A DNA stretch of 64,000 bases from Trypanosoma brucei (taxonomy: Eukaryota). The stretch's first letter is position 1; each line of letters begins with the position of its first letter. Under the pieces are notes generated by a model that was given only the letters and a program-made list of their open reading frames with translations, searched no databases and was not told the origin of the DNA. A program made the position numbers and the translations under genes. The stretch is taken from positions 864,001 to 928,000 of the forward strand of contig AE017150.2 in assembly GCA_000002445.1 (NCBI GenBank). Direction: 5' to 3'. This document shows, piece after piece, positions 5,105 to 48,056 of this stretch.

Positions 5105-5346
5105 TGTCAGTGTTGTTTCCTTATGAGTCTATCAAATACACACATATGCGGGAAAGAGGGAAGAGCGTGTCAGTAAAGGGGAAATGCAACAGTGACAATA
5201 GAAAAAGGAGTTACACAAGATATCAAATAATCACACATACACTCGAGGATAATAAACAAGAAACATGAAAAAGGATAACACAAATAATAATGGAAGAGAG
5301 CAGCCATATCACATATCCCAACAAATTGGTTAGTGAGGCACAGGTA
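4938..5346. repeat. direct repeat copy B (partner of 3037-3441)
   Basis: Same evidence as copy A. Covers the 5' coding end and upstream region of the intact gene at 4049-5104. Confidence 0.85.
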
Positions 5347-7825: not shown

Positions 7826-8125
7826 AGAAAATACGTCGGAGGGGAAAAGAGGTACAAAACTGTTGAATATAGGTGATGTCTGTTGCTAATGTTTCTTCTT
7901 TGATACTATTATTAATACTGGTGGATCGCGTAACGCAATCGCGCAGCAAAAATGAAAGGAGGGAAGAAGGGACATACACGACAAATACTCGGCACTATCT
8001 AACATACAATACAACCGCCACAACAATGTTGTTATTAACCCCAAATGCTCTCCCCCACTTGCCGCACACAAACACCCCATAATAACCGTAAGCGCCAACT
8101 CTGGTGAAGAATAAACCGAAAGCGT

Positions 8126-8126
<1 letters not shown>

Positions 8127-8170
<44 letters not shown>
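8127..8170. repeat. (CA)22 microsatellite in the 3' flank/UTR of the zinc-finger gene
   Basis: Uninterrupted cacaca tract read directly from the sequence. Confidence 0.95.
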
Positions 8171-8175
<5 letters not shown>

Positions 8176-8187
8176 AGACACCTCCAT

Positions 8188-11100
8188 TCATTCATGCAGC
8201 GGCAACAAACCTCCTGCTGCGGTTGTGCATTTAGAACCACCACTGTTAGCGGCGGAATTGGCTGTGGTGTGCCTTTTACACTTACAGATATCATTCATAT
8301 TCGTCCCAACCACCTCTGTCACCACTCGGGACTCACGGGGCACCGCTTTCCGATGTAGACAAGCAGGGCAAACAACATCGTTCACAATCCACTGACGCGG
8401 CAATTTCATGTATCGAAGGTACGCCCAACGCGTCTCACGATAAATGTGAGCCTTTTGCATAGGTCGCACGAGCTCGCACAACTGTGAGAGTACCTCAAAA
8501 CCTAGTTCGTCATAGTCGGTCGTGAGATTCATAAGATCGACCAAATCCAGCGCAATAGCTACCCAGGGCCTCTTGTGTGCCCACGAAACCACCGGCACGC
8601 CGTCAACAACGTTATTGGGCTTTCCTTCCAACGCCAACAAGCAAGCCAACTGAATAATCTCCGCCACGCTCCTTACGGCACTGTGCACTGTGCCATCCTC
8701 CAACACTGGCACCCGTGGGCGTATGCCGCACCTCAAACCTCGAGAAAGGTCACATCCACGCCAGGGCAACGCTGCCTCCTCTGCGCGCTGTAGTGCAGCG
8801 ACTGCGGAACGAAGTAACTTCAAAGCGGTCGAAGGGGAGAGCTCACCATGCGCCGCGCGACGGACCGCGTTGAGAACTATCTTAAGCCTCAAACGGTGAA
8901 CTATCTCTTGCTCCGCCGGCCACACACTGGAAGGCAAAGACCGTCGTTGGTTGCAGTGGTTACATGCAGGACAGACACCGGCTAGATTTTCCAAATGCAA
9001 AAACGTCCCACATGAAGCGCAAGGGGATGGCCCTAAGGGCAGCGGAAAAAGTAGTGCAGTGGGTAAGCAAACCTCAGCACCACCCGGTGAGACACCGTCG
9101 CCGTCTCCCGCAGGGTGGTTCCCGCTGCCGCTAATGTCTTCAACTTCCTTGACTGTGTGATGTAGGTCACTCGCAACCGCAGCCCCGCCAACCTTCTGTT
9201 CAGCAGCGCTGGGATGCATGTCAGTGCACGAACGTATTTCTCGGTACCGAAGAGGATTTGTATAATAAGTAGCGACAGCAACGGCATCGTGAGCAGCACC
9301 ACAGTGCAGGCACGCTAACAGTCCCTCACCACTACCTTTTCGCAAATTGACGCCTAAACAGTTGTTTTTCAGGCAAACCCAAAGCGTGCAAGCGGTATGT
9401 GGGCGAGGAGCATGGCACGTTGGACAAGCCACAGCCTCCTTACCATCGTAGAGGCTACCGCAATGTGGACACGAAGTGTATGCCGGCTCCACCCCACCCT
9501 CAGTAAAATCAATGTCACGTCGGCCTGGATCCCTCTCTGTAGGCTCGAGCACATCCTCGCAGCTACGACAGACAACACTCCACGCAGGGCATGTTGCTCC
9601 ACAGCGAGTGCATTGTCGGGTGGCCCACGGTGTGTCAAGGCGAGTAAATGACGCAGATTTGGTGGCGCCACAGCCGTGACAATGAGTAAGTAGCCATGGG
9701 CAAGCCGTATGGCACTCCACACAACGCCACAATGTCTTTGGAGGACCCGAAGCGGCAGCTGTACACAATGTCCCGCAAAGGGAACACCAAGGACGGAGCA
9801 TCCCAAGAGGATTGTGCCGTCCGCAAACCCTGCAGTCGAATGCAGTTCGCGCCATGGCCTCTTCCATCGTTGGCTGAGGGGATGCACACCGTGCGCAGTA
9901 GAATAAATGTTGCGGTTCGTTTGTGTGGCTGCATCGACCACAGCGCCAGCGTCGTAGTGGAAAGATGGTGCAACCATCAAGAGGAAGCGCGTCACATCCA
10001 ACACCCGCTCCCCGTTCCAATGTTTCCGCTCCACATACAAGACAAATAGGGAAGTTACTGGGAGAAAATCCCCCACAGCCGCGGCATTGAATGACTGCTA
10101 GCTCCAGCGTACCACAGTATTGACACGTGCTGGCACCCCTCCTGTTCCATCGAGTGCATGACCGGCACCTCCACGGCTGTCGCTGCCGCCCAACGTACCG
10201 TCGAAATTCTAAAGCACTCTGCACAGCTTTCAGCACCTTGTCCGTGTGCTCACCCATTTCTGTGGTCGTGACACGGTGGTTCAACGACTCCAATGACGCG
10301 AGTGGCATTTCGTGCAGTGGGCTTAGGTGAGTAACGGGGCATCGAGGCGCGCCCACCACGTCGAGGAGTACAACGCTTATTCCTTCAACGAAACCCAAAC
10401 TAAGGAAGTGCTGAAGGGCCATACGACGCGCACCCAACCCAGGGTGCGCGCGATCCAACAGAGACAAGAGGCAGAAGTGGTCGGATGTAGCTTCCCCGGA
10501 ACGGCATTCACCAAGAAGACGCACGTACAATTCTACAACCTTCGAAAGGAGTCCATCCCTTCGGTAAGTTTCCACTGATGTGTGGCGGTGCAGCAATGCG
10601 TGAAGCAGCTGCAGGCATTCATAAGGCGTAGCATATCCCAAATGACTGTCGTTCGCACCAGCACACCCATGGGCAACTGCAGAAAAGGCGACTGCCGGAG
10701 GTATAGGAAATTTCCATGCTCGCGTCAGGTCGTACAAGCGGAACATACCCACCAAAGCCTCCTCAAATCCTGATTCACTGCAGTACCGCCTAGATGCCCC
10801 CTCCACAGCTTCCAACATCAAATCACGGATGTAGTGAGGGAGGCCGGCAGCAAAGTGCCGCCTCGCACCCAGTAAAAAATGTGTGAAAACCTCCACAGCC
10901 TCAGAATACCTCCCCAACAACACGAGTGCTTTGCCGCCCTCCCACGAACCACCCAATGATGGACAGTCGTGTAGATGCCTCTCAATGATTTCATAGGCGC
11001 CACAGCGTAGAAATAACTTGAAGGAAATGCGAATAGCCTCCCTTAGGCGCCGATCAACCACTGCCCGCGCCCCGCGGTGGAGACCGATGGCATCACGGTC

Positions 11101-19433: not shown

Positions 19434-20007
19434 CGAGCGGAAGATAGTTCATACAGAATCATCGTGCTTGTACCTCATCGGCCAAGCACCGGGAGTTGCA
19501 TAAATCGCAACAAACAGTCACACAGCGCTGTAGGGAAGGCGTGGGGGGGAGGGTAAGGAGCTTTCTAAAAAATTAAAACAGAAACGAGATGAGGCTCCAC
19601 TTCCGGTCGGCCATCACAATTCATCGGCTACTATGATTTTGCAGCTGTCTATAGTTTCGTGCCCCGAATGGAGGGACATGGTCATGCGTCCAAAACATTA
19701 AGAAAGGTATAACTAGATAACGATCAACACCACGCCCTTATGTACAAAGAACATATCTATGGTGACGGCTTTCAAAAAAGCACTCCGTGTATTAACACGA
19801 ACCACTCTTTTCCGCCGACTCCAGAGGTGGGCACCACCCGTTTTCGTTTTGTTGCTTCTATCCCCTTGTAACGAACTGGCGTTCACATGCAAGTCCTTTT
19901 TGCATCTATCTACTCTATTCGTTTAGCAGCGTGCTGACGGCTGTACGAACATATAAACAGACCGAAATGACGATAACAACAGCACTGAGTATACACAAAT
20001 ATATTCC

Positions 20008-32658: not shown

Positions 32659-33201
32659 TCATAGACTGAATCGAGCAATCGACATATCATTAACTGAGCT
32701 CTCTTCTTCATCTCCGGTGAAGTGGGTGACACTGGGTTCTTGTACACCGCTTCCACCATCGGTAGAACTATACGAACGACAAGCGCAGGCACAACAATTG
32801 TTTTGTAACAATGCCTTCAACTCCTCTAGCTCCCTCGTTTTCGACGATATGAGGGCCGCGTTTTCGGCAAGGGCCTCCAAAAGAACGCGGTCGTCACCAT
32901 CGGCATTTAGGGTGCTAATATCGTTGCTCGATAACGTCTGATGTCTTGTCCCTGAATTACGTCCTTCATCATTCAAGAATTCATTGATGTTAGCGTTGCT
33001 CTCCTTTAGTTTTTGAATATACTTTTCAATTTCTTCGATTTTATATGCAATGATCTCCATTTTATCACCATCCGACACAGGACCAATTAGCTTCCGCGGT
33101 AAAGCGGCGCTCCGTCGGAGCATGAACACACCCGGGAGAACCATATCCCCCCAACCATCACTACCGTCACCCGACATATCCTTTATACTAAAACAACACA
33201 C
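32659..33201 (-). CDS. hypothetical small coiled-coil protein
   Basis: 180-aa ORF. Central coiled coil (KMEIIAYKIEEIEKYIQKLKESNANINEFLNDEG ... TRELEELKALLQNN). Confidence 0.35.
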   Translation of the reverse strand: MCCFSIKDMSGDGSDGWGDMVLPGVFMLRRSAALPRKLIGPVSDGDKMEIIAYKIEEIEKYIQKLKESNANINEFLNDEGRNSGTRHQTLSSNDISTLNADGDDRVLLEALAENAALISSKTRELEELKALLQNNCCACACRSYSSTDGGSGVQEPSVTHFTGDEEESSVNDMSIARFSL

Positions 33202-33387
33202 ACAGATGTATATACCTAGAAAAACGAACGTCTCAACAAAGTGAAAGTTTATGTGTGATATAAAGATAAATTTATATCACAGTGACAATCGCAATAACGC
33301 TCCAAGCAATACAAAGCAAAATGAAAGCTTTAACCTGCACTGAGGCATAATTCAAAAAAAAAACTAAAACTAGATTGCCACACATAT

Positions 33388-34934
33388 CTACAATTTTAAC
33401 TTAGAAATGAGCGAAACACAATCTAGGGCTAACTCAACAGCCCTCACAGACCGCCGAAACTCTTCGCAATCCACCATGTGACCACTTGATACATAAGACC
33501 TACCGCTTCTGTACTGCCCAACAACACTATTTGCATATGACATCGAACTCATCAGCTTAGCGTGATCCTCAGCAATTTTCTCTACCTCCTGGACATACGT
33601 TGCCGGAGGCTCCACCAAAGAGGGGTTAAGACAAATAGCATGTGAAACCAGCACGGCGTGTATGGCGCCAGCAAAGTGCCGAAGGTACGCATTCTGACTA
33701 CCGTGACGGGGTAACCGACGGCAAATATACTCAGCTAAAAACAGACAACATATGCCAACGACCCCGCCGTTGGTATACATCGAACCAGAATACACCTCGT
33801 AGGCGTATTGAGCTGCCTTTTCACACACTTCTAGTAGAGCCAACTTGGTGATGGGATCACCAACGGGAATTACTATTGTCGCCACACTGTTTTTTCCATA
33901 TATCCAAAGCCCTCCCTCTCTTGACAGCGTTGCTCTGCGCACCATTCCGACCTTAAAGAAACCCCGCTTCGCTGATCCAGCGTATTCTGCCCACGCACAA
34001 AACTCGTGCTCGGTATGAAATGGTGTTGCTCCCGTTGCATGCTGGATAGCGTCACAGACACACAACGACAACCGCTCAAGAGAGACTATTCCCATGTCAA
34101 AAAGCAGTTCCTTCAGCTCACAACACATCAGGCGCTGGGATCCCAAGAAACTAACCCCTATACTGCCCACCAACGTTAGAAAGTCCTCCAACACAGCACC
34201 TCTCATCTCAAGTGAGCACGAAAACAGCAGTATACCACCTTCTCTACAGTCACCCTCCAACAGCATTCGTGATTCTATGGGCAAGTTAACAGATATAAAT
34301 ACCCCATCTTCCACATAAACCTCACTCAACTGTGTTTCCACAGATGACAATAAACACTGACTAACTTCTAGCATGTGGGCATCACTCGTTAAAAAGTATA
34401 TATTCTTTTTTTGGATCACAACATTAGAAATAAGTTGCGCAAGAAAGGCACAATCACCTTTTGCCAAAACACCGCAGCTGAGCAAAATCGACTCCACTCC
34501 ATGCAAGCAGCAATGACTAAATGTTGACTTACACCTTTCGGACCACAAGAAGCCGAAATAAGCTTCGTTGGCCCACTCCTTCAGCAACTTTACAGCTTGA
34601 TGCAAATACATACGTTTCCGGTAACAACAACTGACGCCGCCTACAACACCATCTACTGCACCGAAAAGCCTACATACTAAAAAACCAACCAGCAAACGCG
34701 ACGATTCTTCATAAAAATAAACTTCATTTAAACCTGAAGCCCGAGAAAGCAGCAAGGCACCAAAAAGCTGATTACAACTGTCCCCGCTTTGCATCATACT
34801 GTATTTGACAACATAGCTAAACCACGCAGCCTTAACACTAATACCAGAAGAATCAACAAACAAAAAACGTCTACGACGCCCATATACTTCAAAAAAACAT
34901 ATATTTAAAAAAGTTAACAACTCTTTCAAATTCA
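33388..34934 (-). CDS. divergent TCP-1/cpn60-family chaperonin-like protein (BBS/MKKS-type chaperonin-like?)
   Basis: ELLFDMGIVSLERLSLCVCDAIQHATGATP resembles the CCT intermediate/apical hinge block (dl.rla.atGa). SGSMYTNGGVVGICCLFLAEYI resembles the PGGGA(xE) block. The ORF track extends the ORF to 35028, but those extra 31 codons lie inside the SIRE-like repeat. The likely true start is MNLKELL at 34934. Confidence 0.4.
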
Positions 34935-34954
34935 TACTAATCACGCTAATACAA

Positions 34955-35518
34955 ACCTCATAATCAGACGCAAATCCAACATAGAAAAAGAAAAGGGGAT
35001 AAATCCGGTTAATTCCTCCTTCCGCCACACCAGCAGCACAAACACAACAAAAATGACGAAAAATGATACCAAATCACAACTACAAAAGAAAAAAATAAAA
35101 GTTACGAAACCATCCCGACACCTTGAAACATTTGAACAACACAAATAGCTGCGGGGGCTACGACAACCACAACAACGCAGCAACCAGTGGACCCTCTGAG
35201 GGACGGATGCTCGCACCGCAAAGAAAACTTCGGAGAGCACCACACACACACACACACACCCGTCTGAACCGCTCCCGTCGCGAGAAACAGCCTCCGCCTC
35301 TTCTCAGGTCAAGCACCGCTTAATACCACCGAACCAACATTCCCCACTGCATTCCGCACCCACACCACGGAAACACCACCGTCCAGACACGCTACAACAG
35401 TAAATATGAGTAGGGCCCGTCAAAACACACGGCATCCGGTGGGAAATGCCAACACGTTGCCACAAATTGGCGCAATCATGCAAAAGTCACTACCGCAACA
35501 ACCGAGGGCACTCCAGTA
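34955..35518 (-). repeat. intact SIRE-like interspersed repeat (~565 bp; segments X'+A), inverted relative to the split copy at 36640-37057 + 41360-41505
   Basis: The reverse complement of 35095-35518 matches 36640-37057 almost perfectly, including an internal (CA)8. The reverse complement of 34955-35095 matches 41360-41505. The contiguous small ORFs (66 aa MKHLNNTN..., 104 aa MCVCVV...) are mirrored on both strands. Confidence 0.85.
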
Positions 35519-36639
35519 GCCTCAGTTGTCATATCTTCGCTTTTCCTCCCGCTCCTGGAGACACCCTTGCTGTCCCACCAACCGCCTGAATCTACGCGCA
35601 CCTGCCCGCAGACGGCCCTTTTGTCACCGGTTTCCGCCCACACCTGTCACCGCAGCAACAGCCCGCCTATACTCCACGAGCCGGTGCCGGCAGAGGGAAG
35701 TGCCTTGCTTTTCGCATAATGCCACTGAACAAAGTCCCAAGCGAAAACAATGAGGGACAGCCGCACAAGACCGCCCAGTAGCGTAGTGACGGCAGCTCAG
35801 ATAGAGCGCTGCGGACCCAATGGATGCCATGACGGCTCTGAGGTTTACCCCCCCCCCCCCCGTGGAGGCAAACTCAGCGAGACCGGGGTCAAAGGGCCCA
35901 CTTGCCTTGTTCTGCCGATAAAACATAGAAAGGCGACAGGTGACCCGCGGCATCTGGTTTCCTGTCAGCAAGGTGGTGTCGACCACTGCAGCCCCATCGT
36001 GCAGTGGGTGCCATTCCCCAGCGTAAGAAAAGCATCGGTTGGGTGTGTGCCCTATCTGGTCCCCGGATGAACCTTCCCAACATATCGCTAGTCACATTCT
36101 TTTGCGGCGACCCACCCTCAAGCCCTTGCTAGCGGCCAAAGCTCTTCAGACACGGGTGTACTGGTACTTGTTGAGGATTTCCCTCACCTTATTCGGGTTC
36201 CATCTTTGGTGCTTCAGTGCGTTAGAAGGTCCGCCATATGCTGGCTCGTTGGGTGCATTTTTCGATACGTAGAACACGGTCTCAACGTCTTATTGGCGAA
36301 GCTCCGGCAAATTGCTATGGGGGCCCAGTGACCGGGCAAAGGTCCTACGTTTGAGGAGTCGCGGCTGACGGGCGACTTTTGAGTACCACATTTCAAAGGA
36401 AAATGGGGGGGGGGCGGCCAGTGATTCAATCGGTTCGTCCGGAACATTAAGTGGCCTTGGAGATGAAATCCTTTACTTGCCTCGGAAGCGACGCAAATCT
36501 CTCACTATAGTTGGGGAGAAATAGCCCTCGCCCCTCCGGCGTCCAAGCTTGCACGCGGAAGTACCCTAAGGGTGACGCTACCTAATCATAGAGGGACAAC
36601 GCATCACAAGAACTTCGAACTGCGGAAAGATAAGAGTGC

Positions 36640-37057
36640 CCTCGGTTGTTGCGGTAGTGACTTTTGCATGATTGCGCCAATTTGTGGCAACGTGTTGGCA
36701 TTTCCCACCGGATGCCGTGTGTTTTGACGGGCCCTACTCATATTTACTGTTGTAGCGTGTCTGGACGGTGGTGTTTCCGTGGTGTGGGTGCGGAATGCAG
36801 TGGGGAATGTTGGTTCGGTGGTATTAAGCGGTGCTTGACCTGAGAAGAGGCGGAGGCTGTTTCTCGCGACGGGAGCGGTTCAGACGGGTGTGTGTGTGTG
36901 TGTGTGGTGCTCTCCGAAGTTTTCTTTGCGGTGCGAGCATCCGTCCCTCAGAGGGTCCACTGGTTGCTGCGTTGTTGTGGTTGTCGTAGCCCCCGCAGCT
37001 ATTTGTGTTGTTCAAATGTTTCAAGGTGTCGGGATGGTTTCGTAACTTTTATTTTTG
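36640..37057 (+). repeat. 5' part (A') of the split SIRE-like repeat, flanking the retroelement
   Basis: Matches the reverse complement of 35095-35518. Similarity stops at cttttattttt|gtgagg. Confidence 0.85.
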
Positions 37058-37454
37058 TGAGGTTGAGAAAGGAATCGTCCATCCTTACCACTTTCCTTGT
37101 TATTCGTTCTTTCCTTTCTTATATATGCATAGAAAAACTATTACTGAGGAAAGTTTTTTAAAAAGGTAAGTAATCGCTGTAAGTTTTGAGAGATGGTAAC
37201 GACAACCCCTCCAACTATATTGGATGCCGAATGGAAAATAAGTTTGAAAGAAATAAGGACTTTTGTGAAGCAGGGCGGTCGGACCACATTTTCATTCGAC
37301 TATTGTCCCCCTTTTGGAAATACAGCGGTACACGTAGACGGTTTGGTGAGGCTTGAAAATGGAGAGCTTCGAGTGATTTTTGACTAGGCAGCTAAATTTC
37401 GTCGATTTACGGAGCTCGTTGGTTTCCTTCAATATGCCCTAAAACATTGAATTC

Positions 37455-38440
37455 TTGTGTATGTTCAAAGAAAATAGAGATATGTTTCGTAACGAATGTC
37501 TAGCACTAGAAGCAAATAAGTCTAATTTATACCAACAGTACGAAATGACAAGACCACAAATGAATGATGAGCACTGGAGAATGCAAAACCAGTCGATGGA
37601 ACTGAATAGGCAAGTTGAAAGGTTCATGCAAGAAAATTGTGCTTTGAGAGGGGAAATGGAACAGATGCTCTTCCATAACAATAGGTTAGTAGTTGTCATT
37701 GAATCGATAACACCTGAGTTACACCACTGGAAGATATTAGCAAATACGGACGCCACACATAAAACGGATCCAGTTGTCGAACAAGGGAGAGTAAAGAATG
37801 AATCAGATCAAAAGGAAAAAGGTAGAATAGAAATAAAGTTCCCTTTTGACTCATACAAATCACAGTTTTGTCAGAAATCAAGCGGTTAACATGTAAGGAA
37901 CCACAAGGTAGGAATCAGAGGCATTCAGCAGGTAAAAATAGCTTTGTGGGCAAGGGTTTTCCCCCTAAAGAAAACATACGGACGTTTAAAGGGGAGATCG
38001 AATACATGACGGAGACATCACCGGAACAGTTTTTTAACTGCGTACAAAGAATTGTTCCCATTACCACAAAAACCGGATTACGGGTCACAATGCGTCTGGG
38101 AGCAATTTGCGGCGTGGATAAGTGCAGTGGGAGTATAAGGATCTCAGAAGGTGGGATAACAGTCGGGAGGTCGATTCACACTTATCTTCGAGTCTTACAA
38201 ACAGCGAAAGCCCATCCGGGGGTGCGAGTGGAAGCGTTGGCAAAGGCAGTACATGACTCAAGGAGGGACGAGGATCCATACCATCAAGCATACCCAAAAG
38301 TTCAAAAACCGACTTCCCAAGTTAGCAGAATACGATGCTTCCGATGTGGGAAGTTGGAGCACTACAGTGCGTCATGCTTCGTTAAGGATGCCAAGGTTCC
38401 GTGGAAGCCAACAAGCGAATACCGGCCCCGGAAACAGTAA
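37455..38440 (+). pseudogene. gag-like ORF remnant with CCHC zinc knuckle (frameshifted near 37870)
   Basis: A coiled-coil N-terminal ORF (37455-37889) is followed, in a different frame, by a 190-aa ORF ending ...RIRCFRCGKLEHYSASCFVKD. This contains a Cx2Cx4Hx4C motif. Confidence 0.6.
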
Positions 38441-38870
38441 GCTTCGGGGCCGAGAAAATATTGGAATCCGTATCCATGGTTACGGGGCCAAGGACCCACA
38501 AGTGGGTAATAGCGAATGGAGAAATGCCACGGAAAACTTGCCGGGTAAAGGTCTGATGGTAGAGGAGGACACAGAGGACACAAAGGGAAGAGAGCCAGCA
38601 AGAGAAACGGCATCCCCAGTTTTGCGCCCTACGAAAACACCGGTAAACGAAGTTATCGTTATAAAACTGGCGACCCACGATCCGGTTATGGCGGCGTGGG
38701 CTTCATAATCGAATTGCATAGCAAGGGTCATGAGGACACAGTCAACTTGGGAGCAGCGGCGGTCGATTCTCAGAAGATTCTGCGAGTTTGCGGCAAAACA
38801 CAACGTGGAGCCAAGTGAGGGGAATGTTCCCATCTTCATTGTGAGTTTGTAACTGGACAAAAGCAGCGCC

Positions 38871-39382
38871 GTGAGGTATACAGGAACTCTTTTGTCGATG
38901 CTGGCAGCGGAAAAGGCACTAGCAAGAATGTTTTTGTTGGGTTTGCAGAGAAAAGTGGAGGAAACACCAATAAAGCAGGCCTGCCCCATGGAGATGTGGG
39001 AGCTGGACATGATAAGCGACACAACGGAACTGGAAAGGGAGCGAGTGGCCATGCGTCTGTCTTGGGTCACTGCCAGTCGTTGGGGAGAGATTGCTTCGCT
39101 GCAAAAGGAAAATTTTGTCGCTCATCCTCAGGACGAGGAGGCACTAATCGTCGACTGGGGGGCATCCCAAAGACATTCAAGTTAGATCCACGCAGAGCAG
39201 CGAGATATGTGGTCATCGCGGGCGAGGACGCCAAAAAGTTGAAGAAAGTCGTAAGGTTGATGGTGGATGAAGAAAAACTAACCACCATCAGCACAAGGGA
39301 CGTGGAAAACATTCTGAAACCTTACGCAATGACGGTACATTCTATAAAAAAAAAAGGGGGTCTCTACCTCATGCGACCGTAG
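38871..39382 (+). pseudogene. tyrosine recombinase (DIRS/VIPER-type integrase) remnant
   Basis: LSWVTASRWGEIASLQKENFV resembles the box I arginine region (LxxxTGxRxxExxxL) of YR catalytic domains. A later HSIKKKGG...Y region lies in a shifted frame. Confidence 0.4.
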
Positions 39383-39774
39383 CGGTGGTAGAAAACGACC
39401 TCGACTCACACATTCTGGCCCAGATGGGAAAACACGCGGACCCCATGGAATTTCGTCGGAGCACCACTAGGAATTTAGGGTCGTGGGTGGCAGTGCTAAA
39501 CAAGTAAATTTAACAGTGCTCATGCATAAACGGAGGGTGAGTGGGCCACGTTACTGTGGAAGGTTCAGAATCCAACGATAAAAATAATAGGACAGGACCT
39601 TTATTTCAGAGACACAACATTCTCCGACGCACCCATCAAACCAAGGTCGCCTCGGATACTGAGCAACAGGAGTCACCGTAACAACAGATGAATGTGGAGA
39701 CTTTATCGCTAAAATGGATCAAGTAACGACTGAATAGTCAATATTTACAGCTCTTCAATGATGTTTGGGAGACC

Positions 39775-41163
39775 ATGCGCAGACCGGCCAGGAAAGAAGG
39801 TCGGGAATACGAGCCAAAATTGACGATTTCAGACCAGAATACTATCACCGTGGAAAGAGAGGGTACAATTCAGAAAGTGTCCAACAACCCTACCACGGGT
39901 TGGGCGGTGCCCTTCACGGTAGTTGAAGAGAAGCCAACGGGTTGTCGAGGGCGAATCATTACATGGCCAAAGTCTAAGAATGCACAGGACGATTATGAAG
40001 CTATTGTTCCTCTGGGACACGTGCCACGCTACCTGGATGCTGTCCATGATGAGGGTGCAGCGCTTTGTGATTTAAAAGCTTCGTTTTCTTAAAAGCGGGC
40101 TTGCTGATGGACACCCGATCAGGTTTCTTATGCCGGACGGCAGGTGGAAAGCTCGTGGAACTTGCCCGACTTCCTATGGGTTACAAGTGTGGCCCGGGAG
40201 TCTTACACACGGCCCCGTGTGTATTGGCCGGGGACTCTGCAGTAGTGAAAGCTGAATATGCAGCGCCTTCGTAGCTAAAAGTACATGTGTGGATTGATAA
40301 TATTCGTATTAGCAGTCCACGGGAAGTTGTAAACTGATGGAACAAGGTGATTAGAAGAAACATGTTACAGCGCGGCGCAACTTCATGGAAAAGCAAGTCC
40401 ATCACCGCACTATATGATTTCATTGGAGTCCACTTTGGTCATGGTTCAAAGATGGTGCCATTGAGCAAAAAAACGGTGCGGAAACTCAGGAGGCTATCCC
40501 ACTGAGAGGGTTACTGTTGACAGTTTGGAGAGCATAGTATCCCGAATGATGTATGCGGCAGGGGCACGGGGAGGTTCTCTGTTCCGACATTTTTTTTTCT
40601 TAAAGATGGTAAGACGGCGCTTGTCGGAGCTCAACAGGTGTGTCTTGGCGCAGAACGACATGGCACGGCTTTCCCTCCAGGCAATCCGCATGGGGCAGGA
40701 GTGACTAAGCGGGTTGATCGAAAAAGAACCCGTTAAGCCGTCAAGGTAATTACCGACTTCTGCAACATCGGTTACCGATGCTTCTATACACGGCTGGTGA
40801 GCTTCACTTTTTAAGGACAATGGGAAAGTATGGGCTTCAGGAGGCCAGCGGGCACAACCTCCACATTGTATCTCTCATACCAAGGCGAGAGCAGTGACAT
40901 TGGCATTGAGAGCTTTTCAGGGCAGCCTGCTTAATAATATTTACGTATGTGTGGATAATACTACAGTTATGCATGTCACGAAAAAAGGTAACACACACTC
41001 CGATGCTTCGGTTCAAGAAGTAAGTTTAATAGATCATGTTTATCTGGAGGAAGGCATCGAGGCTCTTTGGGACTATGTTGTTTCATTAGCGAATTTCGCT
41101 GATGGTATCTCACGGAGGAGGGCGGTTTTTCCATCGGACTTAGCGAAAGGGTGGAACTTGTGA
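39775..41163 (+). pseudogene. reverse transcriptase / RNase H remnants
   Basis: A VHVWIDNIRIS peptide (YxDD-like, around 40280) is followed by a stop. The ORF 40894-41163 contains ...YVCVDNTTV... and ...SLANFADGISRR, which is an RNase H-like C-terminal (N..AD.LA) pattern. Confidence 0.35.
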
Positions 41164-41359
41164 TAGGGAGCGCGGGAGGCGGGATGAGAACGCTTTCACC
41201 AATTCCTTATCGTAAGTGTTTTGTTTCTTTCATTGTCTTAATATTGGGAGTTTTACCTACATTGAAAAAGCTTACCGTGATACCCCAAAATTGGCCATTT
41301 AAATAATTATATCTTTATCATAATTCTCTTCTATATGTAGGAGTAGGTAAGGTGCAAAC

Positions 41360-41505
41360 TATTCTTTTCTTTTGTAGTTGTGATTTGGTATCATTTTTCG
41401 TCACTTTTGTTGTGTTTGTGCCGCTGGTGTGGCGGAAGGAGGAATTAACCGGATTTATCCCCTTTTCTTTTTCTATGTTGGATTTGCGTCTGATTATAAG
41501 ATTCA
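41360..41505 (+). repeat. 3' part (X) of the split SIRE-like repeat, flanking the retroelement
   Basis: Matches the reverse complement of 34955-35095 (ttcttttgtagttgtgatttggtatcatttttcgtca...ggaattaaccggatttatcccc...). A pyrimidine-rich tract and AG dinucleotides follow, ahead of the VAMP7-like gene. Confidence 0.8.
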
Positions 41506-41712
41506 TCCGTGCGTGTTGTATAATTATTGATTGTTTTATGTTTGTAATTGGTTATTTGTTGCTTGTTTCTTATATTGCTCTTTTATTTGCTTCGTTGATA
41601 TGCTCAAATATATTCTTTTACATGTTTGTAGTGTAGTGTAGTTGAAGGAAAGGGTCCTAGTTTGTACCTGAGTATTGTGTTACTCTTTTTTATATATGGG
41701 AAGGAATTGCCA

Positions 41713-42378
41713 ATGCTTATATCTGCCTCCTTTGTGTCTTACCAGCGCATGATCGTTGCAGAACATCGTGTTACGGCTACAATGAAAGGTGTTGTTGATG
41801 TTATGCTCGAGCAGCTTCCTCGTTATGACACTAAAGCCGTCTATCAGTATGATGAAAGCGTGTTTCATTTTCTTGTTGAAAATGAACTTGTGTACGGTTG
41901 TGTCACAGGTGTGGATCACACAAAGCGCGTGGTATTTGAATTTTTGTCACGTATCCGTGATTTCTTTAAAAAAGAGTTTGCTGGTAGCGATAGGCGATAT
42001 CCACGACCCTCGGCTATTTCTTTCAGTGCTTGCAGTAAATTCGGCGCAGTGCTTTCAGATAATATGCGGTCATTCAATGAAACTAATAGTACAGATAAAC
42101 TTGGTGAAATTAATAAACTTGTTGATGATACGAAGCATACAATGTTGGGGAACATAGACGTGCTAATTGATCGCGGGGAGCGAATTGAATTATTGTGTCA
42201 TAAGACGGAAGTGCTTAACACCGGATCCCGTGCTTTTCAGTCCAGTGCTAGGTCGTTAAAGTGGAAAGTGTGTATGGGAAAGATGCGGTTTGTTATTGGG
42301 ACGTTTTTACTTTTCCTTTTCTTTGCGACCATATCTTTCATTTTCATTTGCGGCACTAACCTCAAGTGCAAAAAGTAG
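41713..42378 (+). CDS. R-SNARE, VAMP7-like longin-domain vesicle-associated membrane protein
   Basis: Longin-like N-terminus (MLISASFVSYQRMIVAEH...VYQYDESVFHFLVENELVYGCVTGVD). SNARE motif NIDVLIDRGERIELLCHKTEVLNTGSRAFQSSARSLK with the central Arg. C-terminal TM segment. Confidence 0.7.
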   Translation: MLISASFVSYQRMIVAEHRVTATMKGVVDVMLEQLPRYDTKAVYQYDESVFHFLVENELVYGCVTGVDHTKRVVFEFLSRIRDFFKKEFAGSDRRYPRPSAISFSACSKFGAVLSDNMRSFNETNSTDKLGEINKLVDDTKHTMLGNIDVLIDRGERIELLCHKTEVLNTGSRAFQSSARSLKWKVCMGKMRFVIGTFLLFLFFATISFIFICGTNLKCKK

Positions 42379-42512
42379 GAAACACGCTATCACGTAGTCG
42401 GACATTTTTTCATAGTGTAGTTTTTTATAGTTATTTCCACTTTGAAAAAAAAACATTGGTCACTTATTGCAGTTGCAGAGTAAGTGGTATTTGACAGATA
42501 CCTGCTGTTTTA

Positions 42513-43778
42513 TTGCATTATCTTTCGGGTCTTATCACTAAAAAGCAAAAAGAAGCTATACAAGGAAAGGGAAACTTGTCAAGGAAGTCCATTCTAAAAG
42601 AACCTATGGTGGTTACTTTGGTGGAACCAACGAAATGGGCTAATTTAATAGAGGAATACCCAGACACTCTTTATTCTTCCGAATCGGCAAAGAATGTTGA
42701 AAATGTACTCTCGAAAACGTCTACGAGGAGGCACCAAAAAGTGCTGTTCAACGCCGCCAAACCCTTTATGCCAAAAATGATACACGATTGCATTGGTACT
42801 TCGATTCTGAACTCTCTTGTTAAGTATGGTACTGTTACTACCGTCGACGGCGTTTGCAAAATAGTTTTCGAGTCTTGTGAAAAAATTCTGAGATGCCGAT
42901 GCAGCCCTGAAAATCAACGAATTGAATCGTTGGGTTCGCTTTTGGAACGCATTGTTTACCGCTACGACTGTTTGGGTAATTACCGGCAAAACATCATCGA
43001 AGTACTGAAGTCTCTAAGGCCCTCACAGCTTATGGGCACCCCTGTGCTCTTGTTGGCTGCCGCGCGACTGTTAATTCAAAATAGGGATTTTGCATCTTTG
43101 GTTCTGACAAATAGTGAGGCTCGAACGGAGTTTTTTTCAGCCTCCTTAGTAAGAACGAATAGGGGCGTCGTATCTGCTTTCTGCAAAATTCTTTTATCAG
43201 AAGATGCTTTAAAGGACGGTGAAATGACTGGTCTTTGTTCGGCGTTTATTTTCGATTCCTTTTCCGGATTGTATGAACCAAAAGCCACGCTGCGACCGAT
43301 GAAAGACATAACACTACTACTGGCTAGCTGCGGTTCCATTGATGGGGTCCGAAATCTCGGGAAAAGTCTGGCGCGTTGGCCGGATATTCACGGTAGGGCA
43401 AAGGGTGATGATTATGCCAAAATTGTGGCTCATATTTTATCCCGCCTACCTGATACCGACAGCGGATTGCCGCTTGTTAAGGCAGTTCTTCACTCTGAAG
43501 AGGATATAAATGATCGACTTCGTTGTCGCAAATCATCTCATTTGCATCTTCTCGCTTCAATTGCTGAAAAGCAGTCGTACGTTCAAGTTCTCTCAGAGGC
43601 ATTGGGTACTTCTGTGGAAAAGAAGCTTGCGAGTGCTGTTGTGCAGTACCGAAGAGTGACGAAACCACGAGTGGTTTCGACAAAAGAGTTGCTTTCCCGA
43701 AAGCTTGCCGATATGCGGAAAGGCTCCGGGGAGAATGACAGCGCGCGTAACGTTTCCAAGAGATTCCGTGAATGGTAA
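42513..43778 (+). CDS. hypothetical protein (421 aa)
   Basis: Long ORF in PTU orientation. No domain recognised. Confidence 0.4.
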   Translation: MHYLSGLITKKQKEAIQGKGNLSRKSILKEPMVVTLVEPTKWANLIEEYPDTLYSSESAKNVENVLSKTSTRRHQKVLFNAAKPFMPKMIHDCIGTSILNSLVKYGTVTTVDGVCKIVFESCEKILRCRCSPENQRIESLGSLLERIVYRYDCLGNYRQNIIEVLKSLRPSQLMGTPVLLLAAARLLIQNRDFASLVLTNSEARTEFFSASLVRTNRGVVSAFCKILLSEDALKDGEMTGLCSAFIFDSFSGLYEPKATLRPMKDITLLLASCGSIDGVRNLGKSLARWPDIHGRAKGDDYAKIVAHILSRLPDTDSGLPLVKAVLHSEEDINDRLRCRKSSHLHLLASIAEKQSYVQVLSEALGTSVEKKLASAVVQYRRVTKPRVVSTKELLSRKLADMRKGSGENDSARNVSKRFREW

Positions 43779-45184: not shown

Positions 45185-46654
45185 ATGGATTACGCCGCCG
45201 CAATAAAGCAGCAGGCAGAAGATCTGCAAGACGAGCTGAAGGACTTGGCTTTATGGCAGGAGGAAGTTGCACGTCAGCATGAAGTGAACAAGATGAAAAA
45301 GTCAGCCACATTTGTCACAAACTCTGTTCCTCCTATAAGAGGAACAGTACCATCCCTGAAGGAAGCCGTTTTGAAGAGCGCTGGTGTTGTTGAGAAGGAG
45401 GACCCTGTGAAGAAACAGAAAGACAAAGGTAACGAACTGTTCCAAAGTGGGAAACTCCAGGAAGCAGTGGAGGCATATGCTGTGGGTATAGACCTTGACC
45501 CAGAAGGGCCGATGGCACACGTGCTCTACGGCAACCGAGCGCTTTGTTACTTGAAGTTGGAGAGATGGTCTGATGCCGAACGGGATGCCTCCTCTTGTGT
45601 TCGTCTTAACCGCACATACGCCAAAGGGTACTTTCGCCGCGCTACAGCCAGGAAACAGCTAGGGAATTTAAAAGGTGCGCGTACAGACCTAGAGGCAGTG
45701 TTGGCGCTTTCACCGAATGATGTAAGTGCCACAAATGAGATGTCGTTAGTAACCAAAATGATCCGAGCAGATCGAGATGGCGCTGAACCGGTTACCAGGA
45801 AAAAGATTGTTATTACCGAGGTTGACGACGATGATGATGAGCAATGTGTGGGCGAGGGTGCTCAAGACAAGACGGCCTCTCCAAGTGTGATTGAAAGCAA
45901 CACCGGTCGACACCCTAACACCGTGGGAGATCAGGTAGTGAAAAATGAGATCGCTGAGTTGGAGAGGTTTCGGGCGGCCCAACGAGACGCACAGGAAGCC
46001 AGGTCAAGAGAAAGGGAAACCAAATTGCAGTACAAAGGACGTACTTCGTCGAGAGTGGAGATTGTGGAAGAAATCAACAATGAGAGTAAGGAAGGAGTAG
46101 TTGTTTCTTCGTCCCCTCTGTCACTAAACAACGGAGTGACGTCAGCGTCGGCACAAGAATGTCCTTCGAGAGAACTAGCCGCGGTTTCAACGAGCGGTGC
46201 AGCGCAACGACCGGCGACCTTTAAAGACAAAAAGATGAATGAGCCTGTTGTCCCTCGCATGCTAAAGCCGACTGTAAAGTGGACTAAGGATACTTTGAAA
46301 GCACCCAAGTCGTTTACAGAATTTGAGCGAGTTTTTTTAGACCTTAAGGACGATGAGGAACTGCTCTGTTTTTATGTTTCGGTTATACCCCCTGGGAGCA
46401 TGCAGGTGCTTTTTGGAAGCAATATGACACCTGATATTCTTCTTGGTATGCTGAAAGCGGCAGGAAGGCTTTCAGGAACATCAACGGTTTCTTTTCTCAA
46501 GGGACTGTGTACCGTGAAACGCGTGAGGGATATCTCACTGTTCTTTGATGACTGCGAGAAGAAGGTGGTCGAGGAGGTGATGGATGTTGTTGTCTCTTGC
46601 GGAGCTTCTGATGAGGATGTGAGCCTGTTTAGGCGGCAACTTGGGGTTATATAG
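45185..46654 (+). CDS. TPR-repeat protein (co-chaperone-like, RPAP3/Tah1-type?)
   Basis: Three TPR units are present (KGNELFQSGKLQEAVEAYAVGIDLDPEGPMAHVLYGNRALCYLKLERWSDAERDASSCVRLNRTYAKGYFRRATARKQLGNLKGARTDLEAVLALSPND). An acidic linker and a C-terminal globular domain follow. Confidence 0.55.
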   Translation: MDYAAAIKQQAEDLQDELKDLALWQEEVARQHEVNKMKKSATFVTNSVPPIRGTVPSLKEAVLKSAGVVEKEDPVKKQKDKGNELFQSGKLQEAVEAYAVGIDLDPEGPMAHVLYGNRALCYLKLERWSDAERDASSCVRLNRTYAKGYFRRATARKQLGNLKGARTDLEAVLALSPNDVSATNEMSLVTKMIRADRDGAEPVTRKKIVITEVDDDDDEQCVGEGAQDKTASPSVIESNTGRHPNTVGDQVVKNEIAELERFRAAQRDAQEARSRERETKLQYKGRTSSRVEIVEEINNESKEGVVVSSSPLSLNNGVTSASAQECPSRELAAVSTSGAAQRPATFKDKKMNEPVVPRMLKPTVKWTKDTLKAPKSFTEFERVFLDLKDDEELLCFYVSVIPPGSMQVLFGSNMTPDILLGMLKAAGRLSGTSTVSFLKGLCTVKRVRDISLFFDDCEKKVVEEVMDVVVSCGASDEDVSLFRRQLGVI

Positions 46655-46853
46655 ATGGAAACTTTTAATCTGTGTGACTCAGTCGGGGGGGGGGAAGTGC
46701 TTTTTCGTGCTAATTTTTAGTTGAGCATATGCGGCTTTGTGTTTCGCGTCTCTGCCGGTTTCTGGCGTGTTGCGTTGGTTTTCCGCTCCTTTCCAAACTT
46801 CAGTGTCGTTGCTTTTTTTTTTTTGATCCTTTTGCGTGTGGATGCAAGCAAGG

Positions 46854-48056
46854 ATGGTGAAAGAAACAAAATACTACGACGCTTTGGGGGTCCCTCCCAA
46901 TGCTTCCGAAGATGACATTAAGAGAGCTTACCGCAAACTTGCTTTGAAGTATCACCCAGACAAAAATAAGGAGCCTGGAGCAAACGAAAAGTTCAAGGAG
47001 GTTTCGGTGGCCTACGAATGTCTATCGGATGTGGAGAAAAGGAGACGCTACGACCAGTTTGGCGAGAAGGGCGTTGAGTCAGAGGGCGTCGGCATCGACC
47101 CATCGGATATCTTTTCCAGTTTCTTTGGTGGGAGACGCGCACGTGGAGAGGCCAAACCAAAAGATATTGTTCATCAGCAGCCCGTGCCCCTCGAAACTTT
47201 TTATAATGGTAAGACGATTAAGTTGGCTATTATACGTGATCGGCTTTGCGATTCTTGCAACGGTTCCGGCTCTAAAGATCCCAAGGTTTCCTCGCGGTGC
47301 GTGGAATGTGATGGTCGTGGCGTTAAGATAATTACTCGTTCGATTGGACCCGGCTTTGTTCAACAGATGCAGGTCGCGTGTCCAAGGTGCGGCGGAAAGG
47401 GTACGGATATTAAAGAAGAGCATAAGTGCCAGAGTTGCAGAGGCCAACAGATCGTAAAGGATAAAAAGGTTTTTGATGTTGTTGTGGAGAAGGGCATGCA
47501 GCATGGGGACAGTGTGACTTTCCAGGGTGAGGGCGATCAAATACCGGGTGTTCGCCTTTCTGGTGACATTATCATCATACTGGATGAAAAACCCCATCCT
47601 GTCTTCACGCGCAAAGGTGATCATCTCCTCATTCACCACAAAATATCGTTGGCAGAAGCGCTAACAGGTTTCACAATGAACATTAAGCATCTTGATGAAC
47701 GTGCCATTTCTATACGATCCACTAACGTAATCGATCCCCAAAAATTATGGAGCGTGAGCAGGGAGGGTATGCCCATTCCCGGAACGGGTGGCACGGAGCG
47801 AGGTGACCTGGTAATCAAGTTCGACGTTGTATACCCGTCCGCACAAAGCCTCTCTGGAGATGGCATTGAGCCACTGCGCAGAATCCTCGGGTATCCAAAG
47901 CAAGAAGAGCCTGCGCCTGAGGCCACGGAGCACACGCTGGCTGTAACTTACGTTGATCTGGATAGAGAAGCCAGACGCCGTCGCACTGCCGCGAACGACG
48001 ACGACGATGATGCGGGTCAACATGTACACACCGGTGCAACGTGTACGCAGCAATAG
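46854..48056 (+). CDS. type I DnaJ/Hsp40 (DNAJA/Ydj1-like) with C-terminal CaaX box
   Basis: J domain [35 protein letters not shown] region. Four CxxCxGxG repeats ([32 protein letters not shown]). C-terminal CTQQ immediately before the stop. Confidence 0.9.

What the first reader, a model, noticed from the sequence alone, without database searches (positions are those of the whole stretch)
35519..36639. 1.1-kb GC-rich unique spacer flanked by 420-bp inverted repeats, with C12 and G10 homopolymers, at the centre of the divergent SSR
The two inverted SIRE-like arms (35095-35518 and 36640-37057) bracket an 1121-bp GC-rich segment. It has no recognisable ORF, no resemblance to the flanking genes, a C12 run at 35848-35859 and a G10 run at 36407-36416. 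Large inverted repeats with a spacer can extrude as cruciforms or stem-loops. The G/C tracts can form G4 or i-motif structures. This may be the actual bidirectional initiation zone. Pol II TSS regions at divergent SSRs lack classical promoters and are marked by histone variants and often by G-rich tracts. The segment could also be the residue of another element captured between two repeat copies. It is worth checking as a structural or epigenetic landmark and as a possible assembly collapse artefact.
Basis: seen in the sequence. Interest (0 to 1): 0.5.

Follow-up and report, generated by a model that had tools for sequence, protein, structure and literature searches.

The report
Retroelement-end palindrome at a trypanosome strand switch
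The perfect 423-bp inverted repeat is real and is formed by the 5' ends of two head-to-head copies of a dead VIPER/SIRE-type retroelement at a Trypanosoma brucei divergent gene-cluster boundary, and the 1.1-kb piece between them is unique non-coding DNA whose orientation differs between genome assemblies; it is an interesting but largely ordinary transposon-derived structure.

Summary
The arms are 35091-35513 and 36634-37056 (423 nt, 100% complementary). The spacer is 35514-36633 (1120 nt, 56% GC). It carries C14 (not C12) at 35848-35861 and G10 at 36405-36414.

The window is T. brucei chromosome 2; the gene next to the repeat is 100% identical to its TREU927 protein. The right arm is the 5' terminal 'A' repeat of a 4.87-kb frameshifted VIPER-type retroelement (CCHC gag, RT/RNase H) that ends in a 144-bp 'B' repeat. 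The left arm plus an inverted B copy is a 560-bp SIRE-like deletion derivative.

The palindrome is present in two further assemblies. There the arms stay identical apart from (GT)n length, so it is not a collapse artefact. The spacer is inverted in T. equiperdum IVM-t1, which is either a real flip or an assembler's choice.

The spacer has no protein, RNA-family, tRNA, plasmid or phage match and no canonical G4 motif. It diverges between strains at an intergenic rate. The coding-strand skew changes sign at its centre, and a G run faces each gene cluster in either orientation.

My best reading is a transposon-built, recombination-homogenised, possibly invertible core of a bidirectional Pol II start region. 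Promoter function was not tested.

The parts
34954..35097 (-). B'' copy: 144-bp 3' terminal repeat of the left SIRE-like element. It ends about 19 nt upstream of the ATG of the first minus-strand gene. Its sense strand carries the polypyrimidine-AG stretch TTTTTTTCTTTTGTAG.
   Evidence: Inverted match to 41360-41503 at 96.5%.
35091..35513 (-). Left arm: 'A' 5' terminal repeat of the SIRE-like element, with (CA)9.5 at 35241-35259. It is GT-rich on the sense strand of the minus-strand gene cluster.
35514..36633 (.). Spacer: 1120 nt, 56% GC, non-coding and without homologues. The coding-strand skew changes sign at about 36000-36100.
35848..35861 (+). C14 run, which is a G run on the sense strand of the leftward gene cluster. 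Its length is 14, 16 and 15 in the three genomes.
36405..36414 (+). G10 run, on the sense strand of the rightward gene cluster. Its length is 10, 9 and 11 in the three genomes.
36634..37056 (+). Right arm: 'A' 5' terminal repeat of the VIPER-type element, with (GT)9.5 at 36888-36906.
37057..41359 (+). Degenerate interior of the VIPER-type element. It holds a gag-like ORF with a CX2CX4HX4C zinc knuckle (37868-38440), a weak tyrosine-recombinase-like stretch (about 38700-39400), and RT/RNase H (39274-41184) broken by frameshifts and stops.
41360..41503 (+). B copy: 144-bp 3' terminal repeat of the VIPER-type element, 210 nt upstream of the longin/synaptobrevin gene.
33388..34935 (-). First gene of the minus-strand cluster. 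It is a conserved hypothetical protein, 100% identical to T. b. brucei TREU927 XP_951684.
41713..42378 (+). First host gene of the plus-strand cluster (longin + synaptobrevin domains).

Best explanation
Shown. The palindrome is the head-to-head junction of two copies of one degenerate VIPER/SIRE-type tyrosine-recombinase retroelement in a T. brucei chromosome 2 divergent strand-switch region. The right copy is A(423)-gag/YR/RT-RH(4.3 kb)-B(144). The left copy is an inverted A-B deletion derivative of 560 bp, joined at a 7-nt microhomology. The two A repeats are the arms. The 1120-nt spacer is unique, non-coding DNA lying between the two element 5' ends.

Inferred.
1. The arms are kept identical by arm-to-arm gene conversion or crossover. 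The same process can flip the spacer, which would explain its opposite orientation in one assembly.
2. The spacer is residual strand-switch DNA, or the original 5' flank of the element, and it evolves near-neutrally.
3. The module is the core of a broad bidirectional Pol II start region. Each arm presents its GT-rich strand as the sense strand of the gene cluster it faces. Each half of the spacer presents a G run on the sense strand, and this layout is unchanged by inversion. The B copies supply polypyrimidine-AG splice-acceptor signals just upstream of the first gene on each side.
For: Anatomy. The inverted repeat and the extra inverted 144-bp pair are, and the junctions with the TATT(T/C)TT microhomology are.

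Element identity. The RNase H ORF 40801-41160 finds 45 proteins. Every strong hit with a source name is trypanosomatid (T. vivax, T. melophagium, T. theileri, T. grayi, Angomonas 'TcC31.12', Leptomonas). The two long bacterial or environmental hits looked up (P0036, P0049) scored at E 6e-8 to 1e-4 and are repeat or Ig-domain proteins. The long trypanosomatid hits carry RVT_1 and RVT_3. They align collinearly to 39274-41184 with E down to 1e-110. PMC6681497 describes VIPER A/B split repeats and SIRE as A+B.

Reality and homogenisation. The palindrome is present in DAL972 and IVM-t1. Within each genome the arms are identical except for (GT)n length, and the two substitutions fixed between strains occur in both arms.

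Inversion. In IVM-t1 the flanks align in reverse while arms plus spacer align forward.

Spacer. It has no homologue of any kind. Divergence between strains is 1.2% against 0.5-1.9% for neighbouring coding and intergenic DNA.

Promoter-compatible features. GT excess is 0.357 on the sense strand of each arm, and the skew switch lies at about 36.0-36.1 kb. Wedel et al. showed that synthetic 210- and 416-bp GT-rich elements drive directional Pol II transcription and H2A.Z deposition (PMC5579346). In Leishmania chromosome 1 the mapped initiation segment is GC-rich and holds a conserved, length-variable poly(C) tract (PMC1805754). B'' ends about 19 nt from the ATG of the first minus-strand gene, so that cluster must start inside the arm or spacer.
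Against: No transcription, chromatin or read-level data were available, so the promoter role is inference from composition and layout.

The spacer shows no extra conservation, as expected of neutral DNA.

The concerted-evolution signal rests on only two substitutions.

The inverted orientation comes from a hybrid assembly (MiSeq 2x300 plus about 2x PacBio; PMC6395869). That assembly may not have resolved a 430-bp repeat. DAL972 may also have inherited its orientation from the reference.

The tyrosine-recombinase part of the element is only weakly recognisable (E 0.15 for Pfam, 1.5e-6 by tblastx).

No T. cruzi VIPER sequence was compared directly.
Confidence: 0.6

Rival explanations
1. It is a neutral relic only. 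Two old retroelement copies lie in opposite orientation around a stretch of junk DNA. The arm identity reflects a recent local inverted duplication, or occasional conversion, with no role in transcription. The G/C runs are slippage-prone homopolymers.
For: The spacer diverges at an intergenic rate. Run lengths vary between strains. The element interior is thoroughly degenerate. T. congolense has nothing similar within 2.1 kb upstream of the orthologous gene.
Against: The first minus-strand gene starts about 19 nt beyond B'', so transcription of that cluster must begin within or beyond the arm and spacer. The sense-strand GT richness matches elements shown experimentally to act as promoters. 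Two of the three long G/C runs in 64 kb sit here, each on the sense strand of the cluster it faces.
Confidence: 0.3
2. Arms, spacer, coding region and outer B copies are one composite element of about 6.55 kb (34954-41503), with 144-bp inverted terminal repeats in the manner of DIRS1. On this view the spacer is element sequence.
For: The outermost repeats (34954-35097 / 41360-41503) are inverted and bracket everything. DIRS-type tyrosine-recombinase elements do carry inverted terminal repeats (PMC6681497).
Against: VIPER-like elements are reported to have split direct repeats, not inverted terminal repeats. The left A-B unit reproduces the two ends of the right element, joined at a microhomology, which is the known SIRE/VIPER relationship. 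No frame of the spacer resembles any protein, and none of the trypanosomatid VIPER-type proteins matches it.
Confidence: 0.05
3. The structure, or at least the perfect identity of the arms in this window, is an assembly artefact.
For: Arms that are 100% identical could come from one collapsed consensus. Related short-read assemblies break or scaffold oddly here: the OVI contig ends in the arm and has an N10 join, and the T. grayi contig ends 281 bp from the gene.
Against: Three assemblies built from different data carry the same palindrome with a spacer of 1120-1125 nt. In DAL972 and IVM-t1 the two arms have different (GT)n lengths, and in DAL972 they also differ by one substitution, so they were assembled as separate copies.
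Confidence: 0.05

Closest known systems
VIPER / SIRE of Trypanosoma cruzi (VIPER-like tyrosine-recombinase retrotransposons; Vazquez 2000, Lorenzi 2006, Ribeiro 2019 = PMC6681497)
   Same: The order is a gag-like ORF with a CX2CX4HX4C knuckle followed by RT/RNase H. Its homologues are the elements of T. vivax, T. theileri, Angomonas and Leptomonas, all species reported to carry VIPER. The termini are an 'A' and a 'B' repeat. A short non-autonomous form consists of A joined to B. The copies are degenerate, as reported for T. brucei.
   Different: A is 423 bp and B 144 bp here, against 173-185 and 219-220 bp in T. cruzi. The canonical A1...B1-A2-B2 direct layout is absent. Instead the A-B unit is inverted and sits 1.1 kb upstream of the A-interior-B unit. 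No T. cruzi sequence was compared directly.
Large palindromes kept identical by arm-to-arm gene conversion, with invertible spacers (human Y-chromosome palindromes, plastid inverted-repeat flip-flop, the yeast 2-micron circle); cited from general knowledge
   Same: The arms are near-perfect although the sequence is old. The spacer is unique. Substitutions are shared by both arms within a genome. Spacer orientation differs between genomes.
   Different: The scale is much smaller. No dedicated recombinase is implied, because the element's own tyrosine recombinase is a wreck. Isomers within a single population were not shown.
GT-rich dispersed Pol II promoters of T. brucei (Wedel 2017, PMC5579346) and the poly(C) tract at the Leishmania chromosome 1 initiation site (PMC1805754)
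   Same: The sense strand is GT-rich over about 400 bp facing each gene cluster. A G/C homopolymer of variable length sits in a GC-rich stretch at the switch point.
   Different: Here these features are carried by transposon ends and the DNA between them. No transcription or H2A.Z data were examined for this locus.
DIRS1-type inverted terminal repeats
   Same: A tyrosine-recombinase retroelement associated with inverted repeats.
   Different: In DIRS1 the repeats flank the coding region of one element and pair with an internal complementary region. Here the 423-bp repeats flank non-coding DNA and the coding region lies outside them.

Membership tests
VIPER-like (VIPER/SIRE) retroelement | First ORF is gag-like, in some species with a CX2CX4HX4C zinc knuckle | tested here: met
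   CFRCGKLEHYSASC lies at residues 157-170 of ORF 37868-38440. Pfam zf-CCHC gives E 0.0014 at 19.1 bits, just under the 20.8-bit cut-off.
VIPER-like (VIPER/SIRE) retroelement | RT/RNase H ORF related to that of trypanosomatid VIPER elements | tested here: met
   The RNase H ORF has 45 hits, and the named strong ones are all trypanosomatid. RVT_1 and RVT_3 are found in the long trypanosomatid hits. Collinear tblastn covers 39274-41184 with E down to 1e-110. The hits are not labelled VIPER by their sources; the link rests on the species list in PMC6681497.
VIPER-like (VIPER/SIRE) retroelement | Tyrosine recombinase ORF between gag and RT | tested here: inconclusive
   Phage_int_SAM_1 gives E 0.15. 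tblastx of 38929-39119 to a T. theileri remnant gives E 1.5e-6. P0018 residues 88-188 match 38882-39181 at E 1e-4.
VIPER-like (VIPER/SIRE) retroelement | Split direct repeats A1 ... B1-A2-B2 | tested here: not met
   Only A-interior-B and an inverted A-B unit are present. No direct repeat of 30 nt or more occurs in 33000-39500.
SIRE-type short derivative | Consists of the 5' end and the 3' end of the long element, joined | tested here: met
   rc(34954-35513) equals A (identical to 36634-37056) followed by B (96.5% to 41360-41503), joined in a 7-nt microhomology.
G-quadruplex / i-motif forming site | Four G (or C) runs of 3 or more separated by loops of 1-7 nt (also tried with loops up to 12 nt) | tested here: not met
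   No match in 34500-37700 on either strand, and one match in the whole window at 19533-19553. Single G10 or C14 runs could still take part in intermolecular or non-canonical structures.
Invertible segment bounded by inverted repeats | Both orientations of the spacer occur relative to fixed flanks | tested here: inconclusive
   The orientation in IVM-t1 is opposite to that in the window and DAL972. The IVM-t1 assembly rests mostly on 2x300 reads with about 2x PacBio.
Palindrome under arm-to-arm gene conversion | Arms more alike within a genome than the same arm is between genomes | tested here: met
   Outside (GT)n there are no arm-to-arm substitutions in the window or IVM-t1 and one in DAL972. 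Two substitutions between the window and the other two genomes are present in both arms. This is a small sample.
Pol II transcription start region of a divergent SSR | H2A.Z/H2B.V, H4K10ac and primary-transcript 5' ends | not testable with these tools
   Only sequence features could be assessed: sense-strand GT excess of 0.357 in the arms and a skew switch at about 36.0-36.1 kb.
Known structured RNA or tRNA gene (Pol III genes often sit in SSRs) | Match to an Rfam model or a tRNA fold | tested here: not met
   No match at gathering score in the whole window. The best in 34500-37600 is 20 bits at E 0.71. No tRNA was found.
T. brucei centromere | AT-rich repeat array with degenerate retroelements at the mapped topoisomerase-II site | tested here: not met
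   The chromosome 2 array is mapped between Tb927.2.1470 and Tb927.2.1560 (PMC1868937). No array occurs in 33000-43000.

The most novel reading that the evidence does not exclude
The ends of an extinct retroelement have been co-opted as the two mirror-image directional promoters of a bidirectional Pol II start region. The segment between them flips by recombination between the arms. It also carries its two G runs in an arrangement that is unchanged by inversion, so it works in either orientation. A second, nested inversion between the 144-bp B copies may move the whole 6.3-kb block. That second inversion is hinted at by three short-read contigs shown (five on record) and one scaffold, which place VIPER next to the opposite gene.
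Probability: 0.15. Interest if true: 0.6.

Novelty: new member of a known kind. Interest (0 to 1): 0.35.

Why it matters
Pol II promoters in trypanosomes are poorly defined. Here one whole inter-cluster region consists only of transposon ends plus 1.1 kb of anonymous DNA, and the first gene on one side begins about 19 nt beyond the transposon. This gives a compact and naturally symmetric test case for asking which sequences suffice for bidirectional initiation.

If flipping is real, the locus also offers a simple marker for mitotic recombination between short inverted repeats in T. brucei. In practical terms, the locus is a trap for assemblers, because spacer orientation and perhaps the whole 6.3-kb block are ambiguous. 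Otherwise it is an ordinary transposon-derived structure in a well-studied reference genome.

Tried and rejected
1. RNA gene in the spacer. Rfam at gathering score over the window, Rfam at E up to 10 over 34500-37600, and ARAGORN all found nothing credible.
2. Coding or pseudogene origin of the spacer. Pfam on five spacer ORFs found nothing. A 1583-residue concatenation of every stop-free stretch of 30 or more codons in six frames found no protein at E up to 0.1. The trypanosomatid VIPER-type proteins do not match the spacer. The longest open frame is not unusual.
3. Contaminant or transferred DNA. There is no blastn match in the plasmid or phage collections.
4. Canonical G4 motif: none.
5. 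Finer structure inside the spacer. Only the trivial C-run/G-run complement and short chance matches appeared, and there are no tandem arrays. The bacterial-type promoter/terminator scan is at background level and is irrelevant to this organism.
6. Centromere: rejected from the published map.
7. Word-indexed protein search with a reconstructed gag/YR/RT/RH polyprotein returned nothing. Pfam and PDB searches on reconstructed pieces gave only E of about 0.1. The exhaustive HMMER search with the intact RNase H ORF was what established the family.
8. Exact-protein look-ups failed for the window's PP2C, synaptobrevin, an arm ORF and the TREU927 protein.
9. Logan contigs as evidence for a second inversion were set aside. 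The B copies are identical over more than the k-mer length, so the graph cannot tell the isomers apart.
10. An orthologous palindrome in other species was not found. T. theileri has no inverted repeat, and T. congolense shows no similarity within 2.1 kb upstream.
11. I could not retrieve Siegel et al. 2009 to verify my recollection that G runs on the sense strand mark T. brucei divergent SSRs. That point remains unverified memory.

Full report
**1. Observation**

The repeat finder reports one inverted pair in 33000-39500. The arms are 35091-35513 and 36634-37056, 423 nt and 100% complementary, with 1120 nt between them. A blastn of the region against the window confirms this.

The spacer (35514-36633) is 56.2% G+C, against 39-45% in the flanking kilobases. 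The C run is C14 at 35848-35861, not C12. The G10 run is at 36405-36414. These are two of only three G/C runs of 10 or more in the 64 kb. Shuffles of the spacer give a mean longest G/C run of 6.3.

**2. Where we are**

ORFs lie on the minus strand left of about 35 kb and on the plus strand right of about 41.7 kb.
- On the left are YchF, PP2C and SPT5 homologues.
- On the right are a longin/synaptobrevin protein and an RPAP3-like protein.

The gene next to the repeat (33388-34935, minus strand) is 99% identical to a T. b. gambiense DAL972 protein. It is 100% identical to T. b. brucei TREU927 XP_951684. The window is therefore T. brucei chromosome 2, probably TREU927.

Cumulative GC skew reaches its minimum at 35-36 kb. 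In 100-nt bins the GT excess changes sign at about 36000-36100. The palindrome centre is 36073.

The chromosome 2 centromere is mapped elsewhere, between Tb927.2.1470 and Tb927.2.1560 (PMC1868937).

**3. What the arms are**

The same blastn revealed a second inverted pair: 34954-35097 matches 41360-41503 at 96.5%. The layout is therefore:

hyp gene - B''(144, inverted) - A(423, inverted) - spacer(1120) - A(423) - 4.3 kb - B(144) - synaptobrevin gene.

The 4.3 kb contains the following.
- A gag-like ORF with an exact CX2CX4HX4C knuckle, CFRCGKLEHYSASC.
- RT and RNase H motifs scattered over three frames.

The intact RNase H ORF (40801-41160) was searched against 1.84 billion representative proteins and found 45 relatives. 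Every strong hit that carries a source name comes from a trypanosomatid:
- T. vivax (many copies, one named 'Reverse transcriptase like');
- T. melophagium;
- T. theileri;
- T. grayi;
- Angomonas deanei ('TcC31.12');
- Leptomonas pyrrhocoris.

The two long bacterial or environmental hits that I looked up (P0036, P0049) scored weakly, at E 6e-8 to 1e-4. They are repeat or Ig-domain proteins and are most likely spurious. The long trypanosomatid hits carry RVT_1 and RVT_3. They align collinearly to 39274-41184 with E down to 1e-110.

These are the species in which VIPER was reported. VIPER has A and B terminal repeats, and SIRE equals A+B (PMC6681497; PMC12278014). The tyrosine-recombinase part is only weakly detectable.

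The junctions read as follows.
- A|interior: ...CGTAACTTTTATTTTT|GTGAGG
- interior|B: ...GCAAAC|TATTCTTTTCTTTTGTAG
- left copy: ...CGTAACTTTTATTTTTTTCTTTTGTAG

The short copy is therefore the long one minus its interior, joined within a 7-nt microhomology. The arms are the 5' terminal repeats of a VIPER-type element and of its SIRE-like derivative, placed head to head. The canonical direct A1...B1-A2-B2 arrangement is not present.

**4. Is it an artefact?**

I fetched the orthologous loci of two other genomes.
- T. b. gambiense DAL972 (L001) is collinear with the window over 10 kb at 97.6%. Its inverted repeat lies at 7829-8271 / 9396-9854.
- T. equiperdum IVM-t1 (L002) has the repeat at 7189-7621 / 8747-9177, with a 1125-nt spacer.

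In both genomes the two arms differ in (GT)n length, and in DAL972 they also differ by one substitution. They were therefore assembled as separate copies. The existence of the palindrome is not an assembly collapse.

Short-read assemblies do break here.
- The T. equiperdum OVI contig starts in the arm and carries an N10 scaffold join.
- The T. grayi contig ends 281 bp from the gene.

**5. Arm homogenisation and spacer orientation**

Outside the microsatellite, the two arms have no differences in the window or IVM-t1 and one in DAL972. The two substitutions that separate the window from the other genomes are present in both arms. That is the signature of arm-to-arm conversion, though it rests on only two sites.

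In IVM-t1 the flanks align to the window in reverse while arms plus spacer align forward. The spacer is therefore inverted relative to its flanks. That assembly combined 2x300 MiSeq reads with about 7,500 PacBio reads (PMC6395869). DAL972 may have been guided by the reference. I therefore treat the inversion as likely but unproven.

**6. A possible second isomer**

Three Logan contigs, of five on record, are 99.7-99.8% identical to DAL972. They join the VIPER 3' half through B directly to the hypothetical gene. The OVI scaffold points the VIPER 5' end at the same gene across its gap. This is the arrangement expected from recombination between the inverted B copies.

In gambiense, however, the B copies are identical over about 138 nt. 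A k=31 graph cannot separate the isomers. I record this as unexplained.

**7. What the spacer is**

Searches found no match of any kind.
- No Rfam family or tRNA.
- No Pfam domain in its ORFs.
- No protein relative in any of six frames at E up to 0.1.
- No match to the VIPER-type proteins.
- No plasmid or phage DNA match.
- No copy elsewhere in the window.
- No internal repeat structure apart from the C-run/G-run complement.
- Its longest open frame (155 codons) is matched by 11-25% of shuffles.

Between strains it shows 13 substitutions in 1119 sites (1.2%). Neighbouring coding and intergenic segments show 0.5-1.9%. There is therefore no sign of special constraint.

No canonical G4 pattern occurs on either strand. 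The C and G run lengths vary between strains: 14/16/15 and 10/9/11.

**8. How it most likely works**

Shown: the anatomy, the family of the element, and the presence of the structure with arm identity in three genomes.

Inferred:
- (a) Recombination between the arms keeps them identical and can invert the spacer.
- (b) The spacer is what remains of the original inter-cluster DNA, or the element's original 5' flank.
- (c) The module is the core of a bidirectional Pol II start region.

The argument for (c) has four parts.
- B'' ends about 19 nt before the ATG of the first minus-strand gene. Transcription of that cluster must therefore begin in the arm, the spacer or beyond.
- Each arm has a GT excess of 0.357 on the sense strand of the cluster it faces. 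Synthetic GT-rich elements of 210 and 416 bp drive directional transcription and H2A.Z deposition in T. brucei (PMC5579346).
- The mapped initiation segment of Leishmania chromosome 1 is GC-rich and holds a conserved poly(C) tract of variable length (PMC1805754).
- The C run lies in the left half and the G run in the right half. Each cluster therefore sees a G run on its sense strand, and this remains true after inversion.

From memory, Siegel et al. 2009 reported sense-strand G runs at T. brucei divergent SSRs. I could not retrieve the paper.

Both B copies carry a polypyrimidine-AG stretch upstream of the first gene on each side. They are plausible splice-acceptor donors, as I recall was reported for T. 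cruzi SIRE.

From general knowledge, cruciform extrusion is unlikely with a 1.1-kb spacer.

**9. Rivals**

- Pure neutral relic (0.3).
- A single composite element with 144-bp inverted terminal repeats (0.05).
- Assembly artefact (0.05).

The evidence for and against each is given in the rival-explanations section.

**10. Novelty and score**

VIPER and SIRE in T. brucei, transposon-rich strand-switch regions, GT-rich promoters and conversion-homogenised palindromes are all known. This particular head-to-head arrangement with a possibly invertible spacer is a new instance of those kinds, and I found no description of it.

Interest is moderate to low (0.35). It would rise if long reads show flip-flop, or if the arms prove to be the promoters.

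Noticed in passing
window 37500-38500 and 39500-41000 (peak 40000-40500): Mismatch density against both DAL972 and IVM-t1 is 2.6-8% in patches of the VIPER interior (40 of 500 at 40000-40500). The flanks show about 0.5% and the spacer about 1%. This could be ectopic gene conversion from other VIPER copies or a divergent haplotype.
   Followed up: partly
L004-L006 (Logan ERR7929156/163/164) and L003:1-560: Short-read contigs join the VIPER 3' half through B directly to the hypothetical gene. The OVI scaffold joins A + VIPER 5' 360 bp + N10 to the same gene. This is the isomer expected from inversion between the 144-bp B copies, or else a repeat-induced mis-join.
   Followed up: partly
window 35070-35120, 37030-37080, 41335-41385: The A|B junction of the SIRE-like copy lies in a 7-nt microhomology, TATT(T/C)TT. 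The same 7 nt are shared by the A|interior and interior|B junctions of the long copy. This suggests the short form arose by internal deletion or template switching.
   Followed up: yes
window 34936-35097 and 41360-41712: The first gene on each side of the strand switch lies just downstream of a B copy: about 19 nt on the left and 210 nt on the right. Each B copy has the sense-strand sequence T(6-7)CTTTTGTAG, which looks like a polypyrimidine tract plus AG splice acceptor. The transposon probably supplies the 5' processing signals of both genes.
   Followed up: no
L007:2171-3351 (T. theileri NBCO01000023): Degenerate VIPER-type recombinase and RT/RNase H remnants lie 6.6-7.8 kb upstream of the orthologue of the hypothetical gene, in the same relative orientation as in T. 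brucei. No inverted repeat is present there. This could be an ancient shared insertion or a recurrent target. T. congolense shows nothing within 2.1 kb.
   Followed up: partly
window 35241-35259 / 36888-36906; L001 and L002 arms: The (CA/GT)n tract inside the arms is 9.5 units in both arms of the window. It is 4-18 units longer in the other genomes, and unequal between the two arms in both DAL972 and IVM-t1. It is a handy marker for telling the arms apart in long reads.
   Followed up: yes
L001 genes 4794-5111, 5832-6404, 6996-7424 (DAL972 annotation): The DAL972 record annotates short ORFs inside the degenerate VIPER as protein-coding genes. One of them lies on the antisense strand. These are probably spurious gene models.
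   Followed up: no
window 46685-46694: This is the only other G/C run of 10 or more in the window. It is a G10 on the sense strand of the plus-strand cluster, in the gap between ORFs 45185-46654 and 46836-48056.
   Followed up: no
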